Below are positions 20,963 to 60,676 of a stretch of 64,000 bases of DNA, piece after piece (positions within the stretch are counted from its first letter, which is position 1; every line of letters starts with the position of its first letter). Source of the stretch: Cyanidioschyzon merolae (Eukaryota); NCBI GenBank assembly GCA_000091205.1, contig AP006496.2, one strand, 5' to 3'. The notes under the pieces were generated by a model, which worked only from the letters and a program-made list of their open reading frames with translations, was not told the DNA's origin and ran no database searches. A program made the position numbers and the translations under genes.

Positions 20963-21599
20963 TCTTCCTGCCGGCCAAAGTGTGTGTGTGCGCTAGTGCC
21001 TGCAACGCTCCTGGTACGCCTCGGGGGAGTATAACGGAGAATTGCTCGCGGGCTGGTGACCCGGGCGACGCGATCTCCGGGAGGGGCTTGAGGCGGCGCG
21101 CGCCATTGCGCAGCGTCACGCTTTCGTCTGTTGACTGGTGTTAACGAGAAACGTCCAATAATTGTATTTAAATGTATTAAATGATACAAAAATGAAATAG
21201 AAGCGTCAGCCTCATCTGGATGTGCTCGGAGCACGGAGACGGCTGCGACGATTTTTACGGTTTGACAGATCGCTCACATTGACCATGGATCGCAGAATGC
21301 GGAGTTGATGGATATTGGCTTTCAGGAAAGCGTCCATCATGCCGCTGCACCCTATCTTCAGTTTCCATTATTCACGCTTCCTTTCGGCTGTACTGCTCGT
21401 CTAGTACGTTCTATCGTGCGCTGAGTTCCTGCTTTGAGCAGCCGCCGTAGCGCCTGTACCACTTGAGCGAATGCATCACGGAGACAGAACGGCTTTTTCC
21501 GTACCACTGAGGGCGTTGGCTCGAGGCGAGCATCATCCGGCACGGGGTCGGTGTATATCATCATTGTGGAAGCCTGCAAACTGCGCAGACAGACCAAGA

Positions 21600-24361: not shown

Positions 24362-25675
24362 ATTGTCTATGGCGGTCACTCGCCACTAATGTGCACCGGT
24401 TATGCAGCGTTTGATGATTGAACGGCATGCCTGTGCTGGTGGTGGTGGTGCTGCGATGCGCAGGACGCACAAACTCCGGCCTGCGTCGTTGCATCGCAAG
24501 GAGAAAAGATACGTCAGGGCAGGAGCAGGCGCCTACGAGTATCCCGCCTGTCATGTCTGCGCGGTGCAGGTTCATTTGGTGGCTGTGCATTGGGTGCAGC
24601 GCGATGCACGCTTCTACAATGACTTGGAACTGTGTAACGCAACGATTGGCGGTAGCGGGTTGCATCGCTGTTACTTCATGGTGCAGGTGCAGCCGCTGTA
24701 TGTATCCCGCGAACTGAGGTACCACTCTCATCGATTCATGCACAAGCGCTGCGGCCATGCACTGATGCTGCGTTATGGGCGTCGGTGAATCGGCGAACAG
24801 GCTTCTCGCTCCACGGACTAACCTTCAAAAGCTTCGATCAAAAAGCCTCTGGGAGCGGGTTTTCTCGTTGCGGACCTTAAAAGGCGATACCGTACAATTC
24901 TGTTGGCATCGTATTCGGAAATCGCAGCAGAGGAGCGCCAAGCATTCCGTGGCTGGTTTGCGAGATTCGCTGTCTGCTAGGCGAGGACTATGGACCTGAG
25001 CCACTCCCGACGCAGTGCCAGGCGAGCATGCATGCCACCCCTGGCACATCGCTATGATGCTCATATGTTCAAGGTCCAAGTATGCCCAGCCACGGCCATC
25101 GCTCCAATGCTGACTTGCTGGTGTCAACAGGACAACACCCCGTCTCCGCAAGGCTATTTCTTTATGAACCGGCCATGTCCGGAAACGTAAGCATAGCATG
25201 ACAGAATCCTGTATGATATAGGATAGAGACGATGGTTTTTAATTCTCTAATCAGCAGGAGAGAGAGCGTTGCCAGCGAGCACGCTGCGCGAACAACAGGA
25301 ACGGTTAGTGGTCGCTGCTACCTCTTGTCACGTAGATTATCACTCGATCACCCAGATGCACTTGTGAGCGTAGCGCCCATCATCCCTGAATTCCGAATCC
25401 TAGTGAAATGTTCCCCATGAGTGATAAAACTTGCCTGTGTAGACGATCCCCAAAGCGCCGGTGGTGCTGTAGCCGTCCACCTGCTGCGCCTCCGGCTTGC
25501 GCAGTCCTAACGCAGATGACGCGTACGCTGTCGTGCAGCGCCACAGTGTTACGCCTACCTGTTGCCGTTCGGGTTAGGTAGGTTTTGTTTTCGGGCGCTC
25601 CGTCTTGGTGTAAGCGGTAGTCAGAGGTGCTCGGCGCAGGAGCAGCGACAACCGAGTGTTGCGCGTGCGTTTCCC

Positions 25676-36464: not shown

Positions 36465-36727
36465 GTAGGTATGCAACGCATCCGCGTGCTTGCGAACGTG
36501 CGTCGATTATGTACATAACTGGACACTACTGGCCACTTGCTCTGATCGTCGCCGCGGGGAGCTGGCGCACGGCCTCGGGGCCTGCCCTCGGCACCGGCCC
36601 CGCAGCCGATGCCGGTACGCGCCGTGGGCCGTGCCAATCCAGAATCGTATCCACGACACTAGTGCTTACGATTCGGTGTGAAGCACAGTTTTCGCAAGCC
36701 ACAGTTGTTCACTTTTGCGCTATCAAC

Positions 36728-38125
36728 ATGGTTAACTCTGTGTATAGAGAGTGCTATGATGACAGTCACTATCGACCGGAGTTTGAGGGGTTCATTGGGA
36801 ACCGTCCTCTGGAAGAAGTAGATCCCGAGGTTGTGACGCTCATCCGGGCCGAGAAACAACGTCAGGCCGGCGGTTTGGAACTGATAGCCTCCGAGAACTT
36901 TACCTCAAGGGCCGTTATGGAAGCACTTGGATCATGTTTCACAAATAAATACTCGGAAGGGTATCCTGGAAAGCGATACTATGGTGGCACGGAGGTTGTT
37001 GATGAATTGGAGCGCCTGGTGCAGCAACGTGCGCTGAGCCTCTTTGGGCTCGACCCACAAGAGTGGGCGGTTAATGTCCAACCGTACTCTGGGTCGCCGG
37101 CCAACTTTGCAGTGTACACCGCGTTACTAAAGCCGCATGATCGAATCATGGGCCTGGGGTTACCCTCGGGTGGGCACTTGACGCACGGCTTTTACACTGC
37201 GAAAGGAAAGCGGATCTCCGCAACCTCGATATACTTCGAGTCCCTTCCGTACCAGGTCCATCCTCAGACAGGTTATGTTGACTACGATCGTCTAGAAGAG
37301 CTGGCACTGCTGTACCGCCCTCGACTCATTATCTGTGGGGCGTCGGCGTACGCACGCGACTGGGACTATGCGCGGATGCGCGAGATCGCCGACAAGGCCG
37401 GCGCGATGCTCATGTGCGACATGGCGCACTACTCGGGTCTCGTCGCTGCAGGGGAGCTCACTTCGCCGTTTCCGTTCTGCGATGTTGTAACGACAACTAC
37501 GCACAAGTCGCTGCGCGGGCCAAGACAGGGCATGATTTTCTGTCGCCGTCAGTACGAAGCGGATATAAATGAGGCGGTCTTCCCGGGGTGTCAGGGAGGC
37601 CCTCACAATGCAACAATGGCAGCGCTTGGTGTTGCTTTGAAAGAAGCGATGACGCCTGAGTTTCGCGCCTATCAGCAGCAGGTTCGCGCAAATGCGAAAG
37701 CACTCGCCGGGGCATTGCAGGCCCGGGGCTATACAATCGTCACCGGTGGTACGGATAACCACCTAGTGCTTTGGGACCTGAGGCCAGAGGGCCTCACGGG
37801 TAACAAAGTTCAGAAGCTCTGCGATCAAATCAACATAACCCTGAATATGAACGCGGTTCCTGGTGATACGAACGCACTCTCTCCTGGCGGCGTGCGTCTA
37901 GGCACGCCTGCGCTCACTAGCCGTGGTTTCAGGGAAAAGGACTTTGAGCAGGTGGCTGAGTTTCTCCACCAGGCCGTCCAACTTTGTCTCAAAATCCAAA
38001 AGGATTCCGGAAAGAAGCTTGCAGATTTCGAGCGTGCCCTTGAAGGTCGTCCTGAGCTCGCAACGCTGCGCGACCAAGTGCGGGCCTTTGCCTTGCGGTT
38101 TCCAATGCCCGGCGGGCCGCGTTAA
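36728..38125 (+). CDS. SHMT: serine hydroxymethyltransferase (glycine hydroxymethyltransferase). It is probably cytosolic because there is no leader after Met-74 of the track ORF
   Basis: [12 protein letters not shown]...[107 protein letters not shown]...A....[13 protein letters not shown]. The PLP-lysine context is [12 protein letters not shown]. The 73 codons before Met-74 lie inside the inverted-repeat arm and are discounted. Confidence 0.9.
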
Positions 38126-44498: not shown

Positions 44499-44568
44499 AC
44501 CAACAACGCCGTTCTACGTCGACCGACGTCAGTGTACAGTAGTGGCGAGAAACTCGCCCTGGCCAAGA

Positions 44569-47400
44569 AGTCTGCAACTGACGTGCAGACGCCTCCCTGT
44601 CTTTCTGGGCCGGCCACCGACTACATCTTACATATTCTTCTCATATAGTTCCACTTTGAGAGGTTGTCCAACAAAGTTCGTTCTTGGCGTCTCTGGAGGT
44701 CTCTTCTCCAGCACCGCACATCTCCATATATTTAATGGCGGCATTAAAATCTCGGTTCACGACTTCCATCCGTTTCTTGCCATTGATTGTACTCACTAGT
44801 TTAAGTAGCCCTCACACTTTTGCCCTCCTTTCCATTTGCTCTTCCGTCAGCGGTCCGTACTTTGCTATTTCCTCAGGACTCCGCTGCCACTTTTCCATCT
44901 CCACTCTCTGAAGTGTACTACCCAGGTCATGGTGTGTATACGACGTTCGAAACTCATCTACAGGTATCATAACAAAATGCCGTGCAAACTCCTTGTACGC
45001 CCTCGTCGTTGGAGCTGGCGTGGTCCCATTTTTCGACGCCGAACGCCCTGCCCCATAAGCCGCAACCAGCCTTTGACTTTCATCCTCCTTCAAGTCGCTC
45101 AAATGATTGGAAAAGTTGGCAAATGCCCGCTGCTTCCCACAATACAAATTCATACACAAAACGGGTCCACTGGAGCTTGGTATATTCATTCCACAGCGCA
45201 TCCCAATGAGCAATGCGAACTTCCATGAATTTCCGAAAAGCTTGAAAGTCCGCTCTGCGGCTCGTCACCTCGCCCATAGCTTCCAGGTGATCCATCATTC
45301 CTGCATTCCATGCAGCAATTTTCTTCCTCGCATTCATTATACCGACTTCTCGATAGAATCTTGCTCTTGAGAACCTCAACAGACGCATGGCTTTCTGACG
45401 TAATTTACCATCAGCACCATCTTCCACACGCTTGGGTACCGCAATGGTGATGACATTCGTATTCCCAGGGTCCGCGTCAACGACAGAGTCGCTCTCATGC
45501 ACTTTCTGTTCCGAAAGACCCGCCTCCTTCTCATCTTCTTGCTTCGCCACGGGCGAAGCCGAGGTCGGAAATGGCCGATCTGTCTTCAAACGCCGATAGT
45601 GTACACACATGGCTACTCCATCAGTTTCGCTCATCCCAGTGAATACATTTTGCTTGCTCACTTTGAGACGTTTGAAATCAAAGATATTCTTCCAGCACGT
45701 CTCCCGGTTCTCGCCGGTGAACTCTGTCATCCTTACATTGAACTCCGGACAGGTTTCTCTCATTATGCTGTACAGGACTCTGGAGTCGATTGGCATAAAA
45801 TGCGACTTGATCTCGCACCTCGGAACGACGTTGAAGCACTTCCCCATCCGGGCAGCTATCCGTTCCAACAACGCTTCATTTTCCCCACTCAGCTGCCTTT
45901 CGGCCTTGCGTTCGAGTTCCCGGTCCAAAAACACAAAATAGCGCAGGAAGAACGGATAACATTTTTCTTATCTTTTTTCGTAGCTGATACCTTTTCCGCT
46001 GTATTCGCCAGCCCCAAGACTGCACGGCGCTCTTGAACAGCGGCACAGATCACAGAAGCTTCATTCTTTCTCCTGCGTAATGTCCTCTTGTCGAAGAATT
46101 CGATCTCCCGTTCATGGAAGCGATCGTTCTTGATGCCATTGATGATGGCCCATATCCCTTTGCGAGATAGGCCCGGGCAGAGTGCAATCACGGCGCTTAT
46201 CATGAAACGTTCGAGATTCAAAGTCAAATGTTCGTTCAGGTTCTTGACGCACTTGATCGCCCCCTATGCGCAAATATCCGTGTTATACTTCTAGCGAGTA
46301 CCGTTGAGGCGGTAGTTGGGGTATTTTTCGTGGAGGGCATGCGCTCGATCGTTTCTCCTCGACGTTTCCCCAGTGCCGAACATCAAGTGACGAATAAAGG
46401 ACTTGTTGAAAAACTCTCCCAGAACGCCGACTATTTTGACGTCCTTCATATCGCGATACATCTTCCTCACCAAATGCATCAGTGCTAAAGAAGCGATGTG
46501 AACACTCATGGGGTAAGACTCGACACGGTTTCTCATCGCTTCTCGCAACTTTTGCTGGCAGGGATCCTTGATATGGCCGAGAAGACAGGATTTCACCACC
46601 ATAACGTCGTATGATCGTCTTTCTTGCAACCTGTGACGTAGGGCCTCCTGCCATGGCTTCTCCGCCTTGTCTCGTTCCTCTTTGCTTGGCTCTGTTTTTC
46701 GTTTCTTTCCGCCAGCCAGCGTTACTGGCGCTTCAGGATCCTCCATTTCCATTTCCATAACTTATCTTCTCTTTATTTTTGAAGACGAACGCACATGGAA
46801 GGGTTTTGCTGTAAACCGCGAAAAATCAATTGAATTAACTTACTTGAGGGTTTAAACACGACTGAATTGAAAGACTATAGTTTGCTCTGACTTTTACGCA
46901 TATACAACTGGGCCGTTAGAACAACAAGTCAACGAGTGATCATGATAGCGTCGCTCTTCTCAACGGTAACATGCGCGTCGTGCTCGTGACTGCCAGATCA
47001 CGAGGTGCGCTGACCGACCGCACTATATACCACGATAAACAGAGACCAGCTACTAACTAGCACCGAGATAACAATTTCTTTGCCCTCTACGATAAACGCT
47101 GAACGGAGAAAAGGTTTCCATCTATCGAAAGTTTACCTTCAAGGCAGAGGGTCTTGGGATCAGGGTGTCTGCCGGGCTTGCGCTCCGTGCAACTCTGCAG
47201 TGGCGAGTGGCGTGACGCGACCTGAGCTGCTCGTCCCCAACGTAGTTTATTCTTGTAGAACGGGCAGATAGGCTGCGTCTGGGCGTCACACTGGTCACGC
47301 TGGACTCCTTGTAAATCGCTTCCCGCTGCCGCAGGCAGTACGCCTGTCTGCGCAACTTGCTGGTTCCCAGAGTGCTTATGAATCGCGACCCCGTGTCGAG
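44569..47400 (-). mobile_element. copy 2 of the repeat family (putative Fanzor/TnpB-like element). It is the most intact copy and retains the D-A-D-P-G-N box
   Basis: The 3' terminus (on + coordinates 44569-44800) tctgcaactgacgtgcagacgcctccctgtctttct...ttccactttgagaggttgtccaacaaa matches 51339-51470 and the reverse complement of 24250-24361. The 5' box lies at 46780-46880. The 5' flank to about 47400 matches 53600-54090. Confidence 0.6.
44812..46758 (-). pseudogene. ORF of repeat copy 2, split into four frame-shifted pieces (46291..46758, 45889..46227, 45080..45934, 44812..45213). It is a putative TnpB/Fanzor-like RuvC nuclease with a degenerate zinc finger
   Basis: The N-terminal basic stretch GGKKRKTEPSKEERDK looks like an [25 protein letters not shown] is RuvC-I-like (compare TnpB vGIDlGiknlatlsdG). 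RLLRFSRARFYREVGIMNARKKIAAWNAGMMDHLEAM resembles the TnpB helical bundle (l.r..rkk.ks.nrkKar.kiaklh.kianqRkD). TTRAYKEFARHFVMIPVDEFRTSYTHHDLG aligns with TnpB l.YKAe..G..V..VdP.YTSQ.Cs.CG, but both Cys pairs are lost. Confidence 0.45.
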
Positions 47401-47843
47401 TGCACCACCCCTAGAGCCCACGCTCTCAATGGTATGGCAAAAACGTCCTGTCGCCGCGATGCATCGGCTCCAGTAAGATAGGCGGTATGCTGGGTACTTA
47501 CGATAGACACGCGGCTCACGATAGAACGTACAAAGCGACCACTACATCTGAGTACAGGTGATGGAACTTGAAGATAAGCCCATCATGATGGACGCTTTCT
47601 CAATAGCCATTATCCATACATCCCAAAATCTGGAATGTATGGACCATGTAAACGTTTTGGTTTCGAAAACAAATCGGACACCAGAGCGACGCACGGCATC
47701 GAAGCGCTCACGTCAATTAAATAGCGAGCGCGAGGCGGTATCGGCCCTGGAACTTGTGGTAGCGGCAGCGCCAGCGTCAGAGGAGTTTCGTGGGATAGCT
47801 GCTTTGTGCTGCTTGGCCATGGCAATCCACAACTAACTCAGAT

Positions 47844-50800
47844 ATGTTGAATTGCAGTAGAGAGCTTGGAAGAGCGACTTTAGCGACTGTTTGGCAGAAG
47901 GGGCAAGTTTCGGGCTTGCGGGCGTGGTACGCACAGGTTACAGCTTGTGATGCTGCCGGGGGTTACCGCCTAGGAGGCAAACGTTTGATCACGCAGCTCA
48001 TCTCACCTGCCGATAGTGTGGGATCACGGAAAATGGGGGTACCGACGGCGGTTTCGGTGCAGAGACTGTCCTCGTCATGCGCTGGAGAAACGGGCACTGC
48101 TGCGAGCGAACGCAGCGCGAGCGTGCCGCGCTTCGATCCGTCTGTGCACATCGTGACGCGTCGGACTCGCGTCCGAGAGCAGCTGGACGCAATTTTCAAA
48201 CCACGAGCTGTGGCAGTGATTGGTGCGACGGAAAAGCCCGGCTCCGTCGGTCGCAATATTTTCCAGAACCTGCTCTCGCCTTTCGGCGGTGCCGTGTACC
48301 CTGTGAATCCCAAACGAAGCCACATTTTGGGTATACGCGCATATCCGAATGTGTCGTCAATTCCGGAGCCAATAGATCTCGCTGTTATCACGACACCCGC
48401 GAGAACAGTGCCGTCGATTATGCACGAACTCGCTGACAACCGCGTTCCAGGCTGTGTGATTATTTCGGCGGGTTTCGCCGAGGCGCAGGTTGGTGGCGAG
48501 GGTCGAAAGCTTCTCGATGAGACACTCGCAGAGGCTCGGCGTGGAGGCACGCGTATCATCGGACCAAACTGTTTGGGTATCCTCAATATCTCGACAGGGA
48601 TGAATGCGTCGTTTGGTGCACGGGCAGAGTACGTTAAAGGCGATGTGGCTCTGCTGAGTCAGAGCGGAGCTTTGGTCTGCTCGCTTCTCGACTGGGCACT
48701 GAAGGAACGATTTGGTTTCAGCAAAGTTGCATCGTTAGGAACGATGTGCGACGTCGACTGGGCGGATATGATTCGGTATATCGGTGAGGATACGCATTCG
48801 AGGTCGATTGTTGCCTACGTTGAATCGATTGGGAATGTTCGCGCCTTCATCTCGGCTGCTCGAGAGGTTGCAACCACGAAGCCAATTGTGGTGATTAAAG
48901 CTGGACGCACGCCCGCTGCGGCTGCGGCAGCAGCGTCACACACCGGCAACCTTACTGGGTCGGACGAAGTGATTGGGGAGGTCTTGCGCCGTGCCGGAGT
49001 GCTGCGCGTGGATCGAATCGATGATCTCTTCCTCACTGCAAGAGTGCTGGCGCAGCAACCTCGACCTCGCGGAAAAAATCTTACGATCATAACGAATGCG
49101 GGAGGGCCGGGGATCCTAGCGGCAGATGAGTTGGTTTCGGGTGGTGGTGCGCTCACCGAGCTCTCATCAGAAACCATGGATGCACTGGACAAGGTGCTCC
49201 CGGCAGCCTGGTCGCATGCGAACCCGGTTGATATCATTGGAGATGCGACACCAGAAACGTATGCGAAGGCGCTTGAGATCTGCTCCAAGGATGTGAACAC
49301 GGACGGCACGCTTGTGATTCTGACGCCGCAGGTCATGACCGATGCTACTGCAACCGCAGATATTCTGGTACGCGCGGCAGCCACAGCGCGTGCCGAGGAC
49401 AAACCAGTGCTTGCGAGCTGGATGGGGGGCATTGATGTTTTAGCGGGCCAGGAAATTCTGAAACGCAACGAGATCCCCAACTTCGCGTTCGCGGACGTGG
49501 CTGTTCGCATTTGGAACTATCTTCATCGTTACAATTCGATTCTCGAGAGCCTCTACGAGGTACCAGAGGGCCCCTCAACCCGTGTTGCAGGGATGCGCCA
49601 GATTAAGCGTTCTGCAGAAGAAATGCTCGAGCAAGCACGCCAAGCAGGGCGAATCGTGCTGAACGAGTACGAGAGCAAGAGACTTCTCAGCATGTACGAA
49701 ATTCCAGTTTTGGAGGCGAAGCTAGCGCATTCGGAGGATGAAGCCGTTGAGATCGCGAAACGTATTGGTTTTCCGGTCGTAGCCAAGCTGTTGAGCCACA
49801 CGATCACACACAAGACCGACGTTGGTGGCGTGAAGGTGAATCTCCACACACCGGATCAAGTTGTCGAAGCCTTCCATTCGATTCGCGAGAGCGTCACCAA
49901 GCTCCGCGGCGCAGAACACTTCCAGGGCGTTATTCTGGAACGAATGATCGATCTTCGCCCCGGAGGATACGAGGTCTTGTTGGGGAGTACACTCGACCCG
50001 CAAGCAGGACCTATTGTGGCGTTTGGCACCGGTGGAACCCTTGTGGAAGTCTACAGGGACGTCAGTCTCGGCATACCGCCGCTGAACTCTGCGCTCGCGC
50101 GTCAAATGATGGAACGAACTCGCATTTACAATGCACTGAAGGGCGTGCGGGGCCATGACCCGGCTGATCTTGAGCAGCTGCAAACAGTGGTATCTCGCTT
50201 CTCTCGAATGGTGTGCGAACAACGCCTTATCAAAGAGTGTGATATCAATCCGCTGTTTGTGACTCCACGCGGTATTGTGGCAATTGATGCCCGTGTCGTC
50301 TTGCATGACCCGCACGTGTCACTGGATACTGTACCGCAGCCGGCCATCCGCCCGTACCCCTCGGAGTATGTCAGCCCCTGGAGCGGCGACAGTATGGGGA
50401 ACCTCCCGGTGGTGATTCGGCCCATCCATCCCTCGGATACACCAAAGCTTTTAGAGTTCTGGGACGCTCTGTCAACAACAGGCACTGGTTATTTAGTGCC
50501 ACAAGTCGTTGCCGCAGCGCCCACTCGTGACGTGAACCTACGGGATCGATGGCTGCGCAATCGTTTGCTTCGCATAGCCTTTTGCGACTTTAACTCGGAA
50601 ATGGTGATCATCGCCGAGGCCCGTGATGCCGAAGGGAGCGCTGCAATCCACGCTCTAGCCCAGCTGCGTTTGGAGCCGGAGCCGGACCCCGGTCATTTTG
50701 CGATTAACGTCTTGGACACGGACCGTGGGCACGGCCTCGGGACAGAGATGCTCCGCCGACTCATGGATATTGCGCGTCGCGAGGGCTTGACTCGAATATG

Positions 50801-50924
50801 GAGCGAGATCGCACCGGAGAATCGGGCTATGCAGCGCATTTGTGAGAAACTCGGTTTCCAGCTGGGACCATTACCAGACCAGGAGAATGGCAATATTCTC
50901 GCCGAGTACGTTTTGAGCGCGTGA
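47844..50924 (+). CDS. Pat-like fusion of an NDP-forming acyl-CoA synthetase (CoA-binding, CoA-ligase and ATP-grasp domains) with a C-terminal GNAT acetyltransferase, the architecture of bacterial protein lysine acetyltransferase Pat/YfiQ. The first 100 aa or so may be a leader or not translated
   Basis: IFKPRAVAVIGATEKPGSVGRNIFQNLL.PFGG.VYPVNPK is the CoA-binding Rossmann domain of succinyl-CoA-synthetase type. Next come ...GPNCLGI.N...G.NASF and the ATP-grasp block YESKRLLSMYEIPV...FPVVAKL.S..I.HKTDVGGVKVNL. The C-terminal GNAT has RGHGLGTEMLRRLMDIARREGLTRIWSEIAPENRAMQRICEKLGF. Confidence 0.85.
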   Translation: MLNCSRELGRATLATVWQKGQVSGLRAWYAQVTACDAAGGYRLGGKRLITQLISPADSVGSRKMGVPTAVSVQRLSSSCAGETGTAASERSASVPRFDPSVHIVTRRTRVREQLDAIFKPRAVAVIGATEKPGSVGRNIFQNLLSPFGGAVYPVNPKRSHILGIRAYPNVSSIPEPIDLAVITTPARTVPSIMHELADNRVPGCVIISAGFAEAQVGGEGRKLLDETLAEARRGGTRIIGPNCLGILNISTGMNASFGARAEYVKGDVALLSQSGALVCSLLDWALKERFGFSKVASLGTMCDVDWADMIRYIGEDTHSRSIVAYVESIGNVRAFISAAREVATTKPIVVIKAGRTPAAAAAAASHTGNLTGSDEVIGEVLRRAGVLRVDRIDDLFLTARVLAQQPRPRGKNLTIITNAGGPGILAADELVSGGGALTELSSETMDALDKVLPAAWSHANPVDIIGDATPETYAKALEICSKDVNTDGTLVILTPQVMTDATATADILVRAAATARAEDKPVLASWMGGIDVLAGQEILKRNEIPNFAFADVAVRIWNYLHRYNSILESLYEVPEGPSTRVAGMRQIKRSAEEMLEQARQAGRIVLNEYESKRLLSMYEIPVLEAKLAHSEDEAVEIAKRIGFPVVAKLLSHTITHKTDVGGVKVNLHTPDQVVEAFHSIRESVTKLRGAEHFQGVILERMIDLRPGGYEVLLGSTLDPQAGPIVAFGTGGTLVEVYRDVSLGIPPLNSALARQMMERTRIYNALKGVRGHDPADLEQLQTVVSRFSRMVCEQRLIKECDINPLFVTPRGIVAIDARVVLHDPHVSLDTVPQPAIRPYPSEYVSPWSGDSMGNLPVVIRPIHPSDTPKLLEFWDALSTTGTGYLVPQVVAAAPTRDVNLRDRWLRNRLLRIAFCDFNSEMVIIAEARDAEGSAAIHALAQLRLEPEPDPGHFAINVLDTDRGHGLGTEMLRRLMDIARREGLTRIWSEIAPENRAMQRICEKLGFQLGPLPDQENGNILAEYVLSA

Positions 50925-51338
50925 AGGTTTTGTCGGAGGTGCTTGCTCGTGTCCAGCTTTTTACTGCGAAGCGTGTGCGGAGTATCGGGCTCGAGCGACT
51001 GCCTGAAGGGGGGAGGGGGGTGACGAAGCCGAACGGGGAAAGCGTATAACGTTTGATGCAGTTTTATAGGAAGGACGGTTTAAAGCATGTTTTGCTTCGC
51101 GACGCTTTTACAATACGACTTGATTGCGCGCTTCGAATAGCCTGCCGCGTACTGGAAAGATCGCTGTGGTACGCGTAAATCCATTACAAACTTTTGAGCT
51201 GGTGCTGCCTGAGTATTCAGATTATGCTGGGGAAAGATCTGTCAATGGTCTTGCCTCATCGCTTTTTATCCAACTTCGGTGCGACCTTCGCAGCGGTGTA
51301 CAGTGGTAGCGGTGAACGCGTCCTAGACATGACGTCTC

Positions 51339-54090
51339 CAACTGACGTGCAGACGCCTCCCCGTCTTTCTCGACCGGCCACCTACTACTGACTTCAACTT
51401 TTTTTCATATAGTTCCACTTTGAGAGGTTGTCCAACAAAATTCTAGCCTGTCAACTGTGGAGGTCTTTTCTCCATCACCGCACATCTCCGTATAATGATT
51501 GCGGCGTTAAAGTCTCGGTTCACGAAATCCATACGTTTCTTGCCATCATTCGTTGTACTTACTAATGCAAGTAGTCCACGAACTTTCGCCATCTTTTTCA
51601 TTTGCTCCTCCGTCAGCGGTCCGTACTTTTGTATATCCTCGGGGCTCCGCTGGCGCTATTCCATCTCCACAATCTGAAGTGCGCACCCCAGTTCATGGTG
51701 TGTATGGGACGTTCGGAAGTCATCTACGGGTATTGTAACAAAACGCCTTGCGCACTCCTTGTACGTTCTTGTCGTTGGAGCTGGCGTAGTCCCTTTTTGG
51801 GTCTTCAAGCGCCCCTGTCCGTACGCTACTACGAGCCTCTGACTTTCATCCTCCTTCAAGGCGCTCAACTCATTGAAAAAATTCGCGAATGCACGCTGCT
51901 TCCCACAGTACAAGTTCATTCGCAGACGAGCCCACCGGGGCTTGGTATACTCCTCCCACAGCGCATCCCAATGGACAACACGAACTTCCATGAATTTCCG
52001 GAAAGCTTCAAAGTCCGCTCCACGGATCGTCACCTCGCTCAAAGCTTCCATTTGATCCTTCATTCCTGAATTCCAATTCCCGATTTTCTTCCTTGCATTC
52101 ATGATTCCCGATTCTCGATTGTATCTCGCTCTCGAGAACCTCAAATGACGCAGGTTTTACCTACGTAAGTTTCATTCAGTGCCATCTTCCCGACGCTTGG
52201 GTACAGCGATGGTTATGATATTCGTGTTCCAGGGACTAAGGCCGAAGACAAAGTTGTTTTCGTTGGGATTATACGTCCCATGGCCCGTCTTCTTGTTTTC
52301 GTGCTTCGGCAAGTGAGATAATGAAGACGGGATAGGACGACCTGCCTTCATCCGCTGATAGTGTACACATATGTATACTCCATCGTTATCGATTGTCCCA
52401 GTGAATACCTTTTTTTGCCCGGTTTGGGACGCTTGGAATCGAAGATATTCTGCCAGTAGGTGTCCCGGTCTTCGCTGATGATCTCTTTGTTGGTTACATC
52501 GAGCTCTGGACAGATCTCCTTCATGAAGTTGTAAAGGACGATGGAGTAGATATTCACAAAATGTGACTTGAACTCGCATAACCGAACACCAATGAAGCGC
52601 AACCGTAGAAGCGATTGAATATCATCTCTCCAACTCTTCATTTTTTCCATACTCAGCTCCATTTCGGCCATGCGTCCGAAATTGGTCCAAAAACATGAAG
52701 TAGGGGAGAATAAGGGATAACATCTCTCTTCGTTTTTTCTCATATCTGACAATTCTCCTCTTGGGTTGACAAGCCCCAAGACCGAAGGATGCTTTTGAAT
52801 AGTCGCGCGGATAACAGAAGCCCTATTTTTTCTACAGCATGATGTACCCTTGTCGATGAATTCAATCTCCTGTTCATGCTGGCGATCGTTTTTCATACCA
52901 TCGATGATTGCGCATATCCCTTCACGAAACAGGCCCGGATACAGCGCAAGGACGGCGCGTACCATGAAACAATCGAGGTATACGATCTTATTTTTCCTCA
53001 CATTCGTGAGGCACCTCATTGCCCTGTATTCGTATGTATCTGCGCCACCCTTGTATTTGGCACCGTAAAAGCGCGAGTTTGCGTAATTTTTCGGAGAGCA
53101 TGGACTGTCCCATTTCTCCACGAAGTTTCCCAGGTGCCAAACATCAACTGGCTGACAAAGGTCGTGTTGAAAATTTCTCCCTCTCCAAATGCACCAGTCC
53201 CAAAAGACGCGTTACAAACATAGCTTGAGCACGAATCGCCATCGTTTCTGAAGGCCTCTCGCAACTTTTCCTTGTACGGATCCTTACCATGCCCAAGAAG
53301 ACACGATTTCATCACCATTTCATCGCTCTGTCGTCTTTCTTGCAGCATTTGACGTAGGGCCTCCCTTTTTTGCTTCTTTGCGTTATGCTATTCCTCTACA
53401 CTCGGCACAGTCCTTTGTTCTCTTCCGGCGGCCGGCAATACCGGTCATCCAAAAACCTTCTACCTCCAGTTCCATAAGTTTTCTATTTTATAAAAAACAT
53501 TATGGACGCTTCTAGTTTAAACGGCGGCAAAGCAGTAAAATACTTTAACTTGAATATTGAAACACGATTGAAGTAATACCGACACTTTGCTACCATTTGA
53601 TCGCAAACACAACTGGCCCCGATACAGCCGCAGGTCAAAAAGTAGCCATTATCGCATTTCTCTTCACCGGCGAGACAGGTTGCGTGTTGTGACGGCCACA
53701 TATCGTGGTTCGCGTACGGGCCACACAATACAAAAAAAGAACGGAGTGTGGCCGATTACTAGCAACGAGGTAACGGTTCCTTTCCACATCTGTTGCAGAC
53801 CTTGAAAAGAGGAACCTTTTGCTCATGGTCTAACGATTACCTTAGAGGTGGAGGGTCCCACAAACCGGAAGACGCTACCTGCTTTTGCTCCGCGTGACTC
53901 TTAGTGGTGGAGAATGTGACGCACCTGAGTATCTCGTCCGAATCGCGTATGGTTCTGGGACTAGGAGCGGGTGTGCTGCATTTGGGCGTCACCTTGGTCG
54001 CGGTGGACTCCTAGTATACCGCTTCGCGCAACCGCAGGCTGATGGTCTGCATGTACAGCTTGGGGGCTCCCAGAAATATAAATAGCCCTG
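51339..54090 (-). mobile_element. copy 3 of the repeat family (putative Fanzor/TnpB-like element), decayed
   Basis: Its termini and ORF are homologous to copies 1 and 2. The 5' box is tgaaacacgattga at 53551-53564. The flank 53600-54090 matches 46900-47400. Confidence 0.6.
51656..53477 (-). pseudogene. decayed ORF of repeat copy 3 (pieces 53016..53348, 52348..53121, 52172..52579, 51656..52144). The RuvC-I-like box is mutated (LSPWNTN)
   Basis: The N-terminus MELEVEGFW...RRKRTKD...* carries a stop. [26 protein letters not shown] is the RuvC-I-like box. The C-terminal piece is TTRTYKECARRFVTIPVDDFRTSHTHHELGC. Confidence 0.5.
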
Positions 54091-54827
54091 ATTCCGTTTT
54101 GCGTGAACCAAGCCTCTTCTGACGCGCTCAGTGGTATACCAAGGCTGTTCTGTTTCCGTAGCGCATCCGCACCAGCGCCTTAATCGCGACGGTGGGTGCA
54201 TACGACTGGCACTCGACGCACGAGAGAACGTATGAAACGGCCAGTGCATTCGAGAACTGGTAAAAGCGATGGAACGTACAGATATTGCTCAGCATGATGG
54301 ACGCTTTCCCGAAAGGCAATATCGATCCGGCAAGCTGGGATACATGGTCAGTGGAAATGTTCTGTCGAACTAAAGAAAGCATATCGCGGGAGGGAATTCC
54401 TTAATGGCTCTGGTGTTCGAAGCATCGCCTTGGCAGTGCGTATGCGCTGATATCATCCTGCCGGAGGGAATTCCCTTATACTTCCGCTGGGCCGAGCCCT
54501 TGCGTTCAGCGGCGAAGTTTATCCACGATCGTCGTGATCTCCGAGCGGAACGTTGCGCAGCGCTTAGCGCGAAGTACTTGCGAGGTTACTGGTCGGAAAA
54601 CTGGGAGCTTTACCTAGTTTCTGAAAAGGACATAGACCACTTGTGCTAGTTCCACTCAAAGCTTGAAATTCTACAGGAGGCTTAGGTAAGAATCTGTGCA
54701 ATTGACGGACGATCACTCGTGCAGCTACACAACAGAGGTTTTTGACTGGATACGCACGCTTACGCGAACCTTCCTAGGTGGTGACGCACTCGGCAGCTTT
54801 GCACCGGAGAAAACCTAATCCAAGAAA

Positions 54828-58429: not shown

Positions 58430-60676
58430 TTGTTTCTCTGGGAGGCGTTTACTTTTCACTGGTGCAGAACCCCTTTCTTATCCTATATGCGAAAAAGGTA
58501 TTTTTCTATTGTGAGACTCCTGGTTATAGTATTGGTTGTGTCGGGAACACACACAGTTCGTGGAGTTTTGTCCGCAGAGAATACTGTATTATGGACCTGG
58601 ATCGGTGGTAGTAGCTCTAACGGCAGTTCAGGTAGCTACGGTGTTCAGGGTGTGCCGAACACCAGCAACGTGCCTCCGGCGCGGTTCGGTGCGGCCTTCT
58701 GGAACGGCGCTGACGGGGTGCTCTGGTTGTTTGGAGGTGGCAGCGACTTGAGAGACGTCTTCGGTGATCTCTGGAACTACAATCTAAGCACGTTCTCTTG
58801 GACCTGGGTTGGAGGCTCTTCATCCCTCAACTCTGGAGGGGTATACGGCTCCCTCGGAGTTCCCAACAAGAGCAACTATCCGCCTTCGAGGACGGAATCC
58901 GCTGCTTGGAGTGACAGCAACGGAAACCTTTGGTTATATGGAGGCTGGAATTTGAACTTGGGCTATAGTGATATGTGGATGTATAATGTATCGTCGGGCG
59001 AATGGACATGGGTGCAGGGATCCAACGAGACCAATGTTCCCCCGACATATGGTCCTCTTGGGAAGTCGTCTTCAAGCAACACGCCTGGCGGTCGTTACCA
59101 ACCCGCGACCTGGGTTGGCCTAGATGGCCAGTTTTATCTCTTTGGTGGATTTTATCCTTTTGGTCATTTTTACGGTGACCTGTGGCAGTACAACACAGTG
59201 ACCAACGAATGGAGCTGGATAGGTGGCACTCAACAGCAGACTCCCTCTGGAAGCTATGGTACGTTTCGCCAGGCATCGCCGAACAATTATCCCGCTGGAC
59301 GTGCCGGAGCCACATCGTGGCGAGACCTTGATGGGAACTTTTGGCTCTTTGGAGGTTTCGGACAGATTGTCGGATCTAGCAATCTTCTCAATGATTTATG
59401 GCTGTACAATGTCAGCTCCAAAGAATGGACTTGGATGTCTGGAAATGACAGTGTTGGTTCGAATGGGTCGGTATACGGCGAGAAAGGAGTGCCGTCATCG
59501 AGCAACACTCCGGGGTACAGATCCGGTTCCTCTGGATTTGTAGACTCGTCAAACACTCTGTATCTCTTCGGTGGTAGTTCACCCGGTGTCTGCAACGACC
59601 TGTGGACGTTCAATATTACGAGTCTTGAATGGACTTGGGTAGACGGTGACGATACAACGAATGGAGCCTATAGCTACGGCGAGGTTAACAAGACAAGCAA
59701 TACAACGCTTCCACCTCCGCGATACGGTGCAGTTCTTTGGAATACCGATCAAAACGACCCGGTCCTATTCGGAGGCCAAGGCAGCTCCGGTAGCTATAAC
59801 GACCTCTTCACATTATACATCGCAACATCGACGCCTATGCCGACCGCAACACCGACTCCGACGGCATCACCGACGCCCTCCGTTACTGCATCACCGTCGG
59901 CAACAACGAATGTGACGCAGACCGCTGTAGGCGAAGGTTCTGCGGTCTGCTTCCCCGCGGATGCCTCGGTGCTGATCGATGGTCTGGGCAACAGTCTGCT
60001 TATAAGCGAGCTTCGATCAGGTATGGCCGTGATCGGCGTCAATGGGCGTGGGCAACTGGTCGAAGACAGTGTACTAGGATGGTTGCATAACGAGCCCGGC
60101 GCTACTGCAGAGATTCTTGCGATCAAGACGCTTTCCGGAAAGCAGCTGCGTCTGACGAGACAGCATCTGGTATATCGAGTGATCGAACACTCTAGAGACT
60201 TTGATAGTATGACGACCGCTTTCTCGTGTATTTCACAGAAGCAGCAGCAGCAGCATCAGAAGCACGTAGGTCAGAGCCTTGAGCTGGGTACCTCCGCCGT
60301 TGTGGCAGTTTTCGCGGAAGATATCCGCGTTGGCGACGCTCTGCTGGACGTTGCTGCGCAGCTGCCGGACCCCGTTGTGGCAATCGAGACTTTAGTAACG
60401 CACAATGGTCTCTATGCGCCGTTGACTCGCTCAGGGCGCCTTGCGGTCGACGGTGTTCTCGTGAGCTGCTACGGGACGTACGCATCGCATGCCGTGGCAC
60501 ATGCAGTGTTGTGGCCTGCGCGGGTCGATGCTCTGCGCAAGGTATGGGGATCAGGGCTCGGCACAGAGGGTATTGTGGGTATCATGCCGTATGCAGAAAG
60601 GCTCTATCACATTTGGACGAGTGCAGCACGTGTTTTAACGGAGGCTCGCGTAAGTGTTGTAGTTGCAGCCTGCTGA
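58430..60676 (+). CDS. secreted Kelch-repeat beta-propeller protein with a C-terminal Hedgehog/intein-type Hint (Hog) autoprocessing domain. The likely start is Met-20 at 58487, with a signal peptide
   Basis: Six Kelch-like blades repeat the pattern YG..G.P..SN.P..R...A.W.D..GNLWLFGG......NDLW.YN....EWTW. A TPMPTATPTPTASPTPS linker follows. The Hint N-terminus EGSAVCFPADASVLIDGLG matches Hedgehog GCFPG.S.V. The C-terminal LAVDGVLVSCYGTYASHAVAHAVLWPAR is Hog-like. Confidence 0.8.
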   Translation: MFLWEAFTFHWCRTPFLSYMRKRYFSIVRLLVIVLVVSGTHTVRGVLSAENTVLWTWIGGSSSNGSSGSYGVQGVPNTSNVPPARFGAAFWNGADGVLWLFGGGSDLRDVFGDLWNYNLSTFSWTWVGGSSSLNSGGVYGSLGVPNKSNYPPSRTESAAWSDSNGNLWLYGGWNLNLGYSDMWMYNVSSGEWTWVQGSNETNVPPTYGPLGKSSSSNTPGGRYQPATWVGLDGQFYLFGGFYPFGHFYGDLWQYNTVTNEWSWIGGTQQQTPSGSYGTFRQASPNNYPAGRAGATSWRDLDGNFWLFGGFGQIVGSSNLLNDLWLYNVSSKEWTWMSGNDSVGSNGSVYGEKGVPSSSNTPGYRSGSSGFVDSSNTLYLFGGSSPGVCNDLWTFNITSLEWTWVDGDDTTNGAYSYGEVNKTSNTTLPPPRYGAVLWNTDQNDPVLFGGQGSSGSYNDLFTLYIATSTPMPTATPTPTASPTPSVTASPSATTNVTQTAVGEGSAVCFPADASVLIDGLGNSLLISELRSGMAVIGVNGRGQLVEDSVLGWLHNEPGATAEILAIKTLSGKQLRLTRQHLVYRVIEHSRDFDSMTTAFSCISQKQQQQHQKHVGQSLELGTSAVVAVFAEDIRVGDALLDVAAQLPDPVVAIETLVTHNGLYAPLTRSGRLAVDGVLVSCYGTYASHAVAHAVLWPARVDALRKVWGSGLGTEGIVGIMPYAERLYHIWTSAARVLTEARVSVVVAAC

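What the first reader, a model, noticed from the sequence alone, without database searches (positions are those of the whole stretch)
47844..50924. Bacterial Pat-type fusion of an NDP-forming acyl-CoA synthetase with a GNAT domain, encoded in a eukaryotic nucleus
The order is CoA-binding, CoA-ligase, ATP-grasp and then a C-terminal GNAT (1026 aa). This is the architecture of bacterial protein lysine acetyltransferase Pat, which regulates acetyl-CoA synthetase. It is rare in eukaryotes. It may mark a horizontally acquired acetylation regulator, possibly organelle-targeted because there is a roughly 100-aa leader. Alternatively it is a bifunctional ADP-forming acetyl-CoA synthetase
Basis: partly seen in the sequence, partly recalled or inferred. 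Interest (0 to 1): 0.5.

Follow-up and report, generated by a model that had tools for sequence, protein, structure and literature searches.

The report
Bacterial-type ACD–GNAT enzyme in red alga
This is a real, intact nuclear gene of the hot-spring red alga Cyanidioschyzon merolae that fuses a bacterial-type ATP-making acetyl-CoA enzyme to an acetyltransferase domain; bacteria donated it long ago, its relatives are shared across this algal group, and it is already annotated, so it is a solid but only moderately novel finding.

Summary
ORF 47844-50924 (+) encodes 1026 aa with the order CoA-binding, CoA-ligase, ATP-grasp, GNAT, after a ~110-aa disordered leader. It is 100% identical to C. merolae 10D XP_005537438 ("acetyl-CoA synthetase") and lies among eukaryotic genes in conserved synteny.

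Its closest relatives outside red algae are bacterial ACD-GNAT fusions (~50-54% identity), and E. coli PatZ is the best full-length structural match. But it is not PatZ-like in its key residues:
- It keeps both ACD catalytic histidines (H366 in SHTG, H656) and the Asp/Asn of the D-I-N-P motif (Asn read as an Mg2+ ligand). PatZ/SePat lack the first histidine and the Asn.
- The GNAT keeps its acetyl-CoA P-loop, but PatZ's catalytic Glu is replaced by His951 (Gln in Cyanidium).

It is also not a C. merolae oddity. Orthologues exist in Cyanidiococcus, Cyanidium and (degenerate) Galdieria (clade support 88-90%). Cyanophora is a possible sister (~55%), and apicomplexans carry a similar, separately acquired gene.

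Best reading: an anciently acquired, probably organelle-targeted, probably active ADP-forming acyl-CoA synthetase carrying a modified acetyltransferase module. I class it as a new member of a known kind, of modest interest.

The parts
47844..50924 (+). Complete CDS (1026 codons + TGA) of the ACD-GNAT protein, identical to C. merolae 10D XP_005537438.1
47844..48179 (+). N-terminal leader (aa 1-112). It is disordered, basic, rich in Ser/Thr/Ala/Gly and poor in acidic residues. The first ~90 aa cannot be aligned among the three red algae (dN 0.54). Putative organellar targeting peptide; an alternative start is M64 at 48033.
48204..48584 (+). CoA-binding Rossmann domain (Pfam CoA_binding_2, aa 121-247) with an ACD-type GSVGR motif. 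The positions of PatZ's allosteric acetyl-CoA residues R26/R81 are Ser134/Thr188 here.
48636..49049 (+). Succ_CoA_lig flavodoxin-like domain (aa 265-402). It carries the swinging loop and the phosphohistidine motif S365-H366-T367-G368 (His codon CAC at 48939-48941).
49083..49493 (+). Ligase_CoA_2 domain (aa 414-550)
49632..50303 (+). ATP-grasp_5 domain (aa 597-820). It has the second catalytic His656 in T-H-K-T-D-V-G-G-V (49809-49811), the invariant Lys648, and Asp800/Asn802 in D-I-N-P (50241-50249), which I read as the Mg2+ ligands.
50412..50861 (+). C-terminal GNAT domain (aa 857-1006). The acetyl-CoA P-loop R961-x-x-G964-x-G966 and K1002 are kept. The position of PatZ's catalytic Glu809 is His951 (CAT, 50694-50696). 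A red-alga-specific rewritten/inserted segment lies at aa ~876-905 (50469-50558), the region of PatZ's gating motif.
44532..47617 (.). Upstream copy of a ~3 kb dispersed repeat that brackets the gene. It is absent from the syntenic Cyanidiococcus locus. It is not part of the enzyme and is listed as context.
51296..54326 (.). Downstream direct copy of the same repeat (~76-81% identical to the upstream copy)

Best explanation
The ORF is the nuclear gene for C. merolae XP_005537438. The protein is a bacterial-type single-chain fusion of an NDP-forming acyl-CoA synthetase (ACD: CoA-binding, CoA-ligase, ATP-grasp) with a C-terminal GNAT.

Origin. The gene entered the lineage from bacteria before the Cyanidiophyceae diversified, and possibly earlier, because glaucophyte copies may be sister. 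It then became compositionally indistinguishable from host genes and gained an N-terminal extension that most likely directs it to an organelle. A mitochondrion is my guess; a plastid is not excluded.

Mechanism (inferred). The ACD half is catalytically competent. ATP bound in the ATP-grasp phosphorylates His656. The phosphate passes to His366 on the swinging loop, which carries it to the CoA site to make or break an acyl-CoA thioester (acetyl-CoA + ADP + Pi <-> acetate + ATP + CoA). In an alga of hot, often micro-oxic acid springs, the likely direction is substrate-level ATP production or acetate formation from acetyl-CoA. The GNAT half still binds acetyl-CoA, and selection is maintaining it. 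However, a His (Gln in Cyanidium) replaces the usual Glu general base. It is therefore either a lysine/amine acetyltransferase with altered catalysis or an acetyl-CoA-sensing module coupled to the ACD core.

Shown: gene identity, architecture, residue conservation, purifying selection, bacterial affinity, red-algal monophyly.
Inferred: enzymatic activities, direction of the reaction, targeting, targets of the GNAT.
For: Architecture and fold:
- Pfam domains.
- PDB sequence hits. The best is the active ADP-forming 4-hydroxybutyrate-CoA ligase 8wzu (429 bits, aa 117-811). PatZ 9it0 follows at 385 bits over aa 113-1007.
- AlphaFold model, pLDDT 73.
- Foldseek: PatZ TM 0.75, 8wzu TM 0.85 and ckcACD1 alpha 0.87 (TM normalised by target).

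Catalytic residues:
- H366 and H656 align to Nmar_0206 H256 and H535, the two phospho-transfer histidines (PMC11494057).
- SHTG is present in 132/132 close homologues and absent from EcPatZ.
- N802 is Asn in 89/94 homologues and His in PatZ.
- PMC3195501 states that SePat lacks the critical histidine and cannot make acetyl-CoA.

GNAT:
- The P-loop glycines and K1002 are conserved. The E809 equivalent is H/H/Q in the three algae, against E in 76/94 homologues.

Selection:
- dN between C. merolae and Cyanidiococcus is 0.048 (ACD alpha), 0.11 (ATP-grasp) and 0.10 (GNAT), against 0.54 in the leader. dS is saturated.

Origin:
- The top 120 hits after the three algae are metagenome or bacterial proteins of the same architecture, with every source-given name bacterial, at 51-55% identity.
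- Named relatives span Verrucomicrobiota, Chloroflexota, Acidobacteriota, Cyanobacteria and others.
- Red-algal clade including Galdieria: 88-90% NJ bootstrap. With Cyanophora added: ~55%.
- Shared red-algal D-E-V/I-F-R-R signature.
- Conserved synteny and eukaryotic neighbours.
- Codon usage correlation r=0.82 with neighbours.

Leader:
- Present in C. merolae, Cyanidiococcus, Cyanidium, Galdieria and Cyanophora P0261 (57-112 aa), against 21 and 26 aa in the two full-length bacterial examples.
Against: - No biochemical, expression or localisation data exist for this protein in anything I could read.
- Conservation of catalytic residues does not prove activity or direction.
- The protein falls below every NCBIfam equivalog cut-off (for example TIGR02717, 499 against 567 bits), so substrate specificity is open.
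- I could not run a targeting predictor. The leader lacks an obvious N-terminal Phe motif and shows only a weak amphipathic helix.
- The phylogeny is distance-based (NJ with Kimura/gamma distances). Long eukaryotic branches could attract each other, the bacterial donor is unresolved, and the red + glaucophyte link is weak (~55%).
- The Galdieria orthologue has lost SHTG and the GNAT P-loop, so the function is dispensable or changeable in at least one lineage.
Confidence: 0.6

Rival explanations
1. A true Pat/PatZ-type regulator. The GNAT acetylates the active-site lysine of AMP-forming acetyl-CoA synthetase or other enzymes. The ACD-like part acts only as an acetyl-CoA/nucleotide sensor and scaffold, not as an enzyme.
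For: - Same domain order as PatZ, which is the best full-length fold match.
- GNAT P-loop, K1002 and F952 are conserved.
- The GNAT is under purifying selection.
- His can act as a general base in some GNATs (my own knowledge, not tested here).
Against: - The features that make PatZ/SePat a dead ACD are not shared. H366/SHTG and N802 are retained.
- PatZ's allosteric acetyl-CoA residues R26/R81 are Ser/Thr here.
- The catalytic Glu809 equivalent is not Glu, and in Cyanidium it is Gln, which cannot act as a base.
- Identity to PatZ is only ~29-30%, and the ACD part scores higher against an active ligase.
- The target enzyme and a partner deacetylase could not be examined from this window.
Confidence: 0.2
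2. Plain ADP-forming acetyl-CoA synthetase with a vestigial GNAT. The acetyltransferase domain is a decaying passenger inherited with the fusion.
For: - The catalytic Glu is substituted in all three Cyanidioschyzon-type algae.
- The GNAT diverges from bacterial homologues more than the ACD modules do: 34.6% identity to bacteria against 47.9% among bacteria for the GNAT, compared with 55.6% against 63.9% for ACD alpha.
- The gating-motif region is rewritten and modelled with low confidence.
- In Galdieria, in two Cyanophora paralogues and in several apicomplexan homologues, the GNAT is degenerate or undetectable.
Against: - GNAT dN (0.10) is as low as that of the ATP-grasp (0.11) and five-fold lower than the leader's.
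- The acetyl-CoA P-loop and the C-terminal beta-alpha-beta core are almost identical among the three algae.
- No frameshift or truncation is present.
Confidence: 0.15
3. Endosymbiotic gene transfer. The gene came from the cyanobacterial ancestor of the plastid and was lost from green plants and most red algae, so it is not a separate horizontal transfer.
For: - Cyanobacteria (Anabaena, Hydrococcus, Halothece and others) encode full-length homologues at 48-51% identity.
- Red algae and the glaucophyte Cyanophora may form a clade (~55%), which would date the gene to early Archaeplastida.
Against: - Cyanobacterial sequences were never the sister of the red-algal clade (0/100, none in the sister lists). 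They nest within the Chloroflexota/Acidobacteriota cloud.
- Cyanobacteria are slightly more distant than several other phyla.
- No green-lineage homologue appeared among the closest hits that carried a name.
Confidence: 0.1
4. Bacterial contamination or an assembly artefact, not a eukaryotic gene.
For: The closest non-algal homologues are bacterial or glaucophyte proteins, and the gene has no introns.
Against: - The gene is embedded between eukaryote-specific genes on a chromosome-scale record.
- It occupies the same syntenic slot in an independent Cyanidiococcus assembly and sits among eukaryotic genes in Cyanidium.
- Host-like GC3 and codon usage.
- ~46% amino-acid divergence from any bacterium.
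- C. merolae genes are almost all intronless (my own knowledge).
Confidence: 0.01

Closest known systems
Bacterial 'bifunctional acetate--CoA ligase family protein/GNAT family N-acetyltransferase' proteins (~910 aa; Chloroflexota, Acidobacteriota, Verrucomicrobiota, Cyanobacteria, Rhodothermus and others)
   Same: - Identical domain order, alignable end to end at 50-54% identity.
- SHTG, HK(T/S)D and D-I-N-P motifs and the GNAT P-loop are conserved.
- A minority of these bacterial proteins also replace the GNAT Glu with Q/R/H.
   Different: - The algal protein has a ~90-110-aa leader.
- It has a rewritten or extended segment in the GNAT gating region.
- It has His951 in place of the usual Glu.
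- It sits on a long stem branch (0.34 substitutions/site).
- As far as I could find, this bacterial subfamily itself is uncharacterised experimentally.
E. coli PatZ (YfiQ/Pka) and Salmonella enterica Pat: type I GNAT protein lysine acetyltransferases (PDB 9isq/9it0)
   Same: - Same four-module architecture and overall fold (TM 0.75 to PatZ).
- GNAT P-loop, K860 equivalent and F810 equivalent are conserved.
   Different: - Only ~29-30% identical.
- PatZ lacks the swinging-loop histidine (a four-residue deletion; 'NTTAG' where ACDs have 'SHTG').
- PatZ has His676 where ACDs have the Asn I read as Mg-binding (PMC3195501, PMC12184503).
- PatZ's CBD acetyl-CoA residues R26/R81 are not conserved here.
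- PatZ's catalytic E809 is H951 here.
Archaeal/bacterial NDP-forming acyl-CoA synthetases (ACD superfamily: Nitrosopumilus Nmar_0206 8wzu, Ca. Korarchaeum ACD1 4xyl, Pyrococcus ACS)
   Same: - Domains 1-2-5 then the ATP-grasp, both phospho-transfer histidines, the swinging loop and the ATP-grasp Asp/Asn.
- Highest-scoring solved relative for aa 117-811.
   Different: - These enzymes have no GNAT domain and no leader.
- The window protein misses all NCBIfam equivalog cut-offs, so its acyl substrate is not assigned.
LGT-derived ADP-forming acetyl-CoA synthetases of eukaryotes (Giardia, Entamoeba; gregarines, Cryptosporidium muris, Porospora)
   Same: - Bacterial-type ACD in a eukaryotic nucleus with patchy distribution, explained in the literature by lateral transfer (PMC8051059).
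- Some apicomplexan members (Porospora, C. muris) also carry a C-terminal GNAT.
   Different: - The apicomplexan group is not robustly linked to the red-algal clade (0/200 bootstraps for the union). The literature attributes it to a separate transfer.
- Those enzymes are reported or predicted to be mostly cytosolic, whereas the red-algal proteins carry N-terminal extensions.

Membership tests
Type I GNAT protein acetyltransferase (Pat/PatZ/YfiQ) | N-terminal ~700-aa NDP-forming acyl-CoA-synthetase-like region followed by a C-terminal ~200-aa GNAT in one chain | tested here: met
   Pfam order. Full-length alignment to PatZ, aa 113-1007. Foldseek top hit PatZ, TM 0.75.
Type I GNAT protein acetyltransferase (Pat/PatZ/YfiQ) | GNAT acetyl-CoA-binding P-loop (Q/R-x-x-G-x-G/A; PatZ G822-G824) and ribose-phosphate Lys (K860) | tested here: met
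   R961-G-H-G964-L-G966 and K1002 are conserved in all three Cyanidioschyzon-type algae.
Type I GNAT protein acetyltransferase (Pat/PatZ/YfiQ) | Catalytic glutamate general base (PatZ E809 / SlPatA E123) | tested here: not met
   The aligned residue is His951 in C. merolae and Cyanidiococcus and Gln in Cyanidium. It is Glu in 76/94 homologues. PMC12184503 describes E809 as the key catalytic residue.
Type I GNAT protein acetyltransferase (Pat/PatZ/YfiQ) | ACD-like region is non-catalytic (critical histidine absent) and acts as an allosteric acetyl-CoA-binding regulatory domain (PatZ R26/R81) | tested here: not met
   SHTG His366 is present. R26/R81 correspond to S134/T188. SePat lacks the histidine (PMC3195501).
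Type I GNAT protein acetyltransferase (Pat/PatZ/YfiQ) | Acetylates the active-site lysine of AMP-forming acetyl-CoA synthetase; homotetramer | not testable with these tools
   This needs enzymology and structural work. The candidate substrate gene is not in the window.
NDP-forming acyl-CoA synthetase (ACD) superfamily | Subdomains CoA-binding (1, 2), CoA-ligase (5) and ATP-grasp (3, 4) | tested here: met
   (TM 0.85-0.87 to 8wzu and 4xym, normalised by target).
NDP-forming acyl-CoA synthetase (ACD) superfamily | Phosphohistidine on the swinging loop (Nmar_0206 H256) | tested here: met
   H366 in 'AAASHTGNLTGSDE' aligns to H256 of 8wzu. The motif is invariant in 132/132 close homologues.
NDP-forming acyl-CoA synthetase (ACD) superfamily | Second phospho-transfer histidine in the ATP-grasp (Nmar_0206 H535) and the ATP-grasp Asp/Asn pair (assigned as Mg2+ ligands from my own knowledge of ATP-grasp enzymes) | tested here: met
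   H656 aligns to H535. D800 and N802 lie in D-I-N-P, with Asn in 89/94 homologues.
NDP-forming acyl-CoA synthetase (ACD) superfamily | Assignment to a specific equivalog (acetate-, 4-hydroxybutyrate- or 3-hydroxypropionate-CoA ligase) by curated score | tested here: not met
   All NCBIfam scores fall below cut-off: TIGR02717 499 against 567; NF045493 521 against 1300. Substrate not assigned.
NDP-forming acyl-CoA synthetase (ACD) superfamily | Measured acyl-CoA + ADP + Pi <-> acid + ATP + CoA activity | not testable with these tools
   No experimental data found.
Horizontally acquired gene of Cyanidiophyceae | Closest relatives are prokaryotic; the algal sequences are monophyletic; the gene is integrated in a eukaryotic chromosome | tested here: met
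   (88-100% bootstrap for the algal clades). Donor phylum unresolved. The gene is not named in the main text of Rossoni 2019; that paper's supplements were not available.

The most novel reading that the evidence does not exclude
The protein is a genuinely bifunctional organellar enzyme inherited from early Archaeplastida and shared with glaucophytes. In this reading, phosphohistidine-dependent acetyl-CoA/ATP chemistry in the ACD core is mechanically coupled to a His-based GNAT that acetylates organellar proteins. It would be a eukaryotic, catalytically live ancestor-type of the bacterial Pat system, linking energy charge and acetyl-CoA level directly to protein acetylation in a mitochondrion or plastid.
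Probability: 0.12. Interest if true: 0.6.

Novelty: new member of a known kind. Interest (0 to 1): 0.33.

Why it matters
Bacterial-type ACD-GNAT fusions are numerous. The exhaustive search found about 10,000 family members (ACD with or without a GNAT) at E<=1e-30. Only the atypical enterobacterial Pat/PatZ, whose ACD part is dead, has been studied.

C. merolae is genetically tractable (my own knowledge). It carries a conserved copy that keeps every ACD catalytic residue but has changed the GNAT base. It therefore offers a clean system to ask whether the majority form of this fusion is an enzyme, a regulator, or both.

For algal biology, the gene would add an ADP-forming, ATP-yielding acetate branch, and possibly an acetylation switch, to the very small metabolic network of a model extremophile. 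It also adds a dated, multi-genus example to the debate on bacterial gene acquisition in Cyanidiophyceae.

The practical consequence is modest. The current annotation 'acetyl-CoA synthetase' should read ADP-forming acyl-CoA synthetase/GNAT fusion, and the Galdieria orthologue should be flagged as catalytically degenerate.

Tried and rejected
1. First phylogeny (94 taxa, top hits only, PatZ root). It suggested a gene found only in the three Cyanidioschyzon-type genera, with an unresolved bacterial sister. The exhaustive representative search then revealed Galdieria, Cyanophora and apicomplexan homologues that the top-120 list had hidden. I abandoned the reading of a transfer limited to those genera.

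2. All-eukaryote clade. The best NJ tree placed red algae, Cyanophora and an apicomplexan-containing group together, but bootstrap support was 0/200 and one member (P0272) is bacterial. Rejected as unsupported.

3. Conserved bacterial gene neighbourhood as a clue to function. I scanned 134 flanking ORFs from ~70 loci. No family occurred more than 3 times (PFOR, Usp and others). Uninformative.

4. Literature search for this gene (accessions, C. merolae + ACS/ADP-forming/localisation, Cyanidiales HGT catalogues). No paper discusses it. Rossoni 2019's supplements were not available.

5. dN/dS. dS is saturated between the algae, so only dN contrasts are reported.

6. Flanking repeat as a TnpB/Fanzor-like transposon (an impression from memory). 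No Pfam or PDB support for the window ORFs or for longer family members. Dropped.

I repeated it without PatZ.

8. Targeting prediction. No predictor was available, so only composition and helical-moment heuristics were computed. These do not discriminate mitochondrion from plastid.

Full report
**1. The observation**

An in-frame stop lies 10 nt upstream of the ATG, so M1 is the longest possible start; M64 is an alternative.

Pfam places the domains in the stated order:
- CoA_binding_2, aa 121-247
- Succ_CoA_lig, aa 265-402
- Ligase_CoA_2, aa 414-550
- ATP-grasp_5, aa 597-820 (E 8e-80)
- GNAT, aa 857-1006

An AlphaFold model built on a 35-sequence alignment has mean pLDDT 73. All four modules are folded, residues 1-110 are disordered, and residues 884-895 have low confidence.

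**2. The organism and the nuclear context**

The protein is 100% identical over its whole length to Cyanidioschyzon merolae 10D XP_005537438.1/BAM81402.1 (UniProt M1VEQ8). That entry is annotated 'acetyl-CoA synthetase' and lies on an 852,727-bp record.

The large ORFs around it are eukaryote-type genes: PIP5K, a plastid-type triose-phosphate translocator, a dual-specificity phosphatase with a rhodanese domain, a Kelch-Hint protein, SHMT and an SDR.

The order SHMT, PIP5K, unknown, ACD-GNAT, SDR, Hint is the same in Cyanidiococcus yangmingshanensis, whose orthologue is 87% identical. The Cyanidium caldarium orthologue (73%) also sits among eukaryotic genes such as TCP1, OSCP, a RING protein and TFIIE.

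GC (0.566), GC3 (0.592) and codon usage (RSCU r=0.82 against pooled neighbours) cannot be told apart from the host genes. The nearest bacterial gene has GC3 0.82. Contamination is excluded.

**3. What it resembles**

After the three algal clusters, identity in the 5.8-billion-protein search drops abruptly to 51-55%. All of those hits are ~910-aa proteins with the same architecture. Where a source names them, the name is 'bifunctional acetate--CoA ligase family protein/GNAT family N-acetyltransferase'.

In species-representative genomes the relatives (47-52% identity) come from Verrucomicrobiota, Chloroflexota, Acidobacteriota, Cyanobacteria, Rubrobacteraceae, Myxococcota, Rhodothermales and others.

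Among solved structures, the best sequence match to aa 117-811 is an active ADP-forming 4-hydroxybutyrate-CoA ligase (8wzu). The best full-length match is E. coli PatZ (9it0/9isq), and fold comparison agrees.

**4.

The ACD mechanism passes the gamma-phosphate of ATP to a histidine in the ATP-grasp, then to a histidine on a swinging loop. In Nmar_0206 these are H535 and H256 (PMC11494057). In the alignment they correspond exactly to H656 (T-H-K-T-D-V-G-G-V) and H366 (A-S-H-T-G-N-L-T-G-S-D-E) of the window protein.

- SHTG is present in all 132 full-length close homologues and absent from E. coli PatZ. PatZ has a four-residue deletion and 'NTTAG' there.
- Thao & Escalante-Semerena state that the critical histidine is not conserved in SePat, which prevents acetyl-CoA synthesis (PMC3195501).
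- The Asn of the D-I-N-P motif (N802), which I read as an Mg2+ ligand by analogy with other ATP-grasp enzymes, is kept here and in 89/94 homologues. It is His676 in PatZ, and the PatZ structure paper reports that no metal was seen there.
- PatZ's allosteric acetyl-CoA-binding arginines R26/R81 are Ser134/Thr188 here, which is the ACD-type GSVGR context.

The ACD half therefore looks like a working enzyme and not a PatZ-style dead sensor.

**5. The GNAT half**

The acetyl-CoA P-loop (R961-G-H-G964-L-G966), K1002 (PatZ K860) and F952 (F810) are conserved.

The residue aligned with PatZ's catalytic E809 is His951 in C. merolae and Cyanidiococcus and Gln in Cyanidium. It is Glu in 76 of 94 homologues; a minority of bacteria, mostly Chloroflexota and including the top bacterial hit, have Q/R/H.

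The region corresponding to PatZ's substrate-gating motif is rewritten and lengthened in the algae and is modelled with low confidence.

The GNAT has drifted further from the bacterial proteins than the ACD modules have. Even so, it is clearly under constraint. Between C. merolae and Cyanidiococcus, dN is 0.10 for the GNAT, 0.11 for the ATP-grasp, 0.048 for ACD alpha and 0.54 for the leader, with dS saturated.

I conclude that the GNAT is functional but altered. Whether it transfers acetyl groups, with His as the base, or mainly senses acetyl-CoA cannot be decided by computation.

**6. The leader**

The first ~90 residues cannot be aligned among the three algae. All three proteins nevertheless carry an extension (97, 90 and 57 residues before the conserved 'DPSVHIV'). 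It is basic, depleted in Asp/Glu and enriched in Ser/Thr/Ala/Gly. Galdieria (63 aa) and Cyanophora P0261 (97 aa) also have extensions, whereas the two full-length bacterial examples have 21 and 26 residues before the ACD.

This pattern is typical of organellar targeting peptides. No predictor could be run, so the compartment remains a guess.

**7. Evolutionary history, where my first answer was wrong**

A tree built from the top hits alone showed only a monophyletic trio with an unresolved bacterial sister, which was never exclusively cyanobacterial.

The exhaustive search of 1.84 billion representatives found 40,423 hits at E<=0.001 and 9,964 at E<=1e-30. It exposed eukaryotic homologues that the first list had hidden:
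- Galdieria sulphuraria XP_005704786 'acetyl-CoA synthetase (ADP-forming)'
- three Cyanophora paradoxa proteins
- Porospora, Gregarina niphandrodes and Cryptosporidium muris/andersoni/serpentis
- several proteins on eukaryotic metagenome contigs

In 195-taxon NJ trees of the ACD region with 200 bootstraps:

| Grouping | Bootstrap support |
|---|---|
| Cyanidioschyzon + Cyanidiococcus + Cyanidium | 100% |
| The above + Galdieria + transcript-like sequence P0346 | 88-90% |
| The above + Cyanophora P0261/P0264 as sister | 54-55% |
| Apicomplexan-containing group | ~50% |
| Red + glaucophyte + apicomplexan union | 0/200 |

A discrete signature (D-E-V/I-F-R-R after the swinging loop, against bacterial A-A-F-R-R) independently supports the red-algal clade.

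The gene therefore entered before the Cyanidiophyceae diversified, and possibly earlier. The apicomplexan genes match the separate LGT described by Salomaki et al. (PMC8051059).

The Galdieria copy is degenerate. Its swinging loop is remodelled with no SHTG, and its GNAT P-loop is deleted.

These are distance trees with long eukaryotic branches, so the deeper nodes should be treated as provisional.

**8. Mechanism and verdict**

The most likely reading is an anciently acquired, organelle-directed ADP-forming acyl-CoA synthetase that still carries a constrained but catalytically modified GNAT. Activities, substrate, direction and localisation are all inferred, not shown.

Bacterial gene neighbourhoods gave no functional clue. 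No paper I could search discusses the gene.

The gene is already in public annotation. Its architecture is a common bacterial one, and LGT-derived ADP-forming ACS in eukaryotes is an established theme. I therefore rate it a new member of a known kind, of modest interest.

Three specific points appear to be undescribed and are directly testable in transformable C. merolae:
- the intact ACD catalytic set, in contrast to PatZ
- the Glu-to-His/Gln change in the GNAT
- the pan-cyanidiophycean distribution, with a degenerate Galdieria copy

**9. Side observation**

In C. merolae the gene is bracketed by two direct copies (~76-81% identical) of a ~3 kb repeat, at 44532-47617 and 51296-54326. A third, inverted copy lies at 21461-24396. 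The syntenic Cyanidiococcus locus lacks this DNA.

Its ORFs belong to a large unnamed family (202 database hits) that carries the precomputed Pfam tag PF26935. I could not identify that family.

Noticed in passing
window 44532-47617, 51296-54326 and 21461-24396: A ~3 kb dispersed repeat family, ~75-81% identical between copies and of lower GC (0.47-0.51). Two direct copies bracket the ACD-GNAT gene, and a third, inverted copy lies 20 kb upstream. The syntenic Cyanidiococcus locus has only ~0.8-0.95 kb intergenic spacers, so these are C. merolae-lineage insertions. Direct repeats on both sides could promote deletion or duplication of the gene.
   Followed up: partly
window 45080-45934 (-), 52348-53121 (-), 51656-52144 (-), 22424-23526 (+): Degenerate ORFs inside the repeat belong to a large protein family: 202 hits at E<=1e-3, all unnamed JGI/ENA metagenome proteins of up to ~496 aa. 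The family carries a precomputed Pfam tag, PF26935, that the local Pfam copy does not report. No PDB or Pfam match was found even for the longest members. My initial impression of a TnpB/Fanzor-like C-terminus found no support.
   Followed up: partly
P0265/P0409 (Galdieria sulphuraria XP_005704786.1): The Galdieria orthologue, annotated 'acetyl-CoA synthetase (ADP-forming)', has a remodelled swinging loop without the SHTG histidine and has lost the GNAT P-loop. Its annotation as an active ADP-forming ACS is doubtful.
   Followed up: partly
P0367 (XP_061385343.1, 'Danaus plexippus trans-feruloyl-CoA synthase FCS1-like'): A protein filed under the monarch butterfly groups with gregarine and Cryptosporidium ACD proteins in the tree. 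It may come from a parasite of that host and not from the insect. The parasite identity is my speculation and was not tested.
   Followed up: no
P0280 (Porospora cf. gigantea, 1435 aa) and P0264 (Cyanophora paradoxa, 1216 aa): Unusual N-terminal additions to the ACD-GNAT core: a complete galactokinase/GHMP-kinase region in Porospora and TPR repeats in one Cyanophora paralogue. These could be real fusions or merged gene models.
   Followed up: no
window 58430-60676 (+): A 748-aa ORF combines Kelch repeats with a C-terminal Hint (hedgehog/intein-type autoprocessing) module in a red alga. A Hint-containing gene occupies the same syntenic position in Cyanidiococcus.
   Followed up: no
window 36509-38125 (+): In the SHMT ORF the Pfam domain begins only at residue 101, so this ORF also has a ~100-aa N-terminal extension. 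It is probably an organellar isoform and could serve as a local comparator for the ACD-GNAT leader.
   Followed up: no
L003/L004 (nearest bacterial homologue P0004) and loci L006-L085: In 3 of ~70 bacterial loci the ACD-GNAT gene lies next to pyruvate:ferredoxin oxidoreductase, which fits a pyruvate -> acetyl-CoA -> acetate + ATP route. There is otherwise no conserved neighbourhood.
   Followed up: yes
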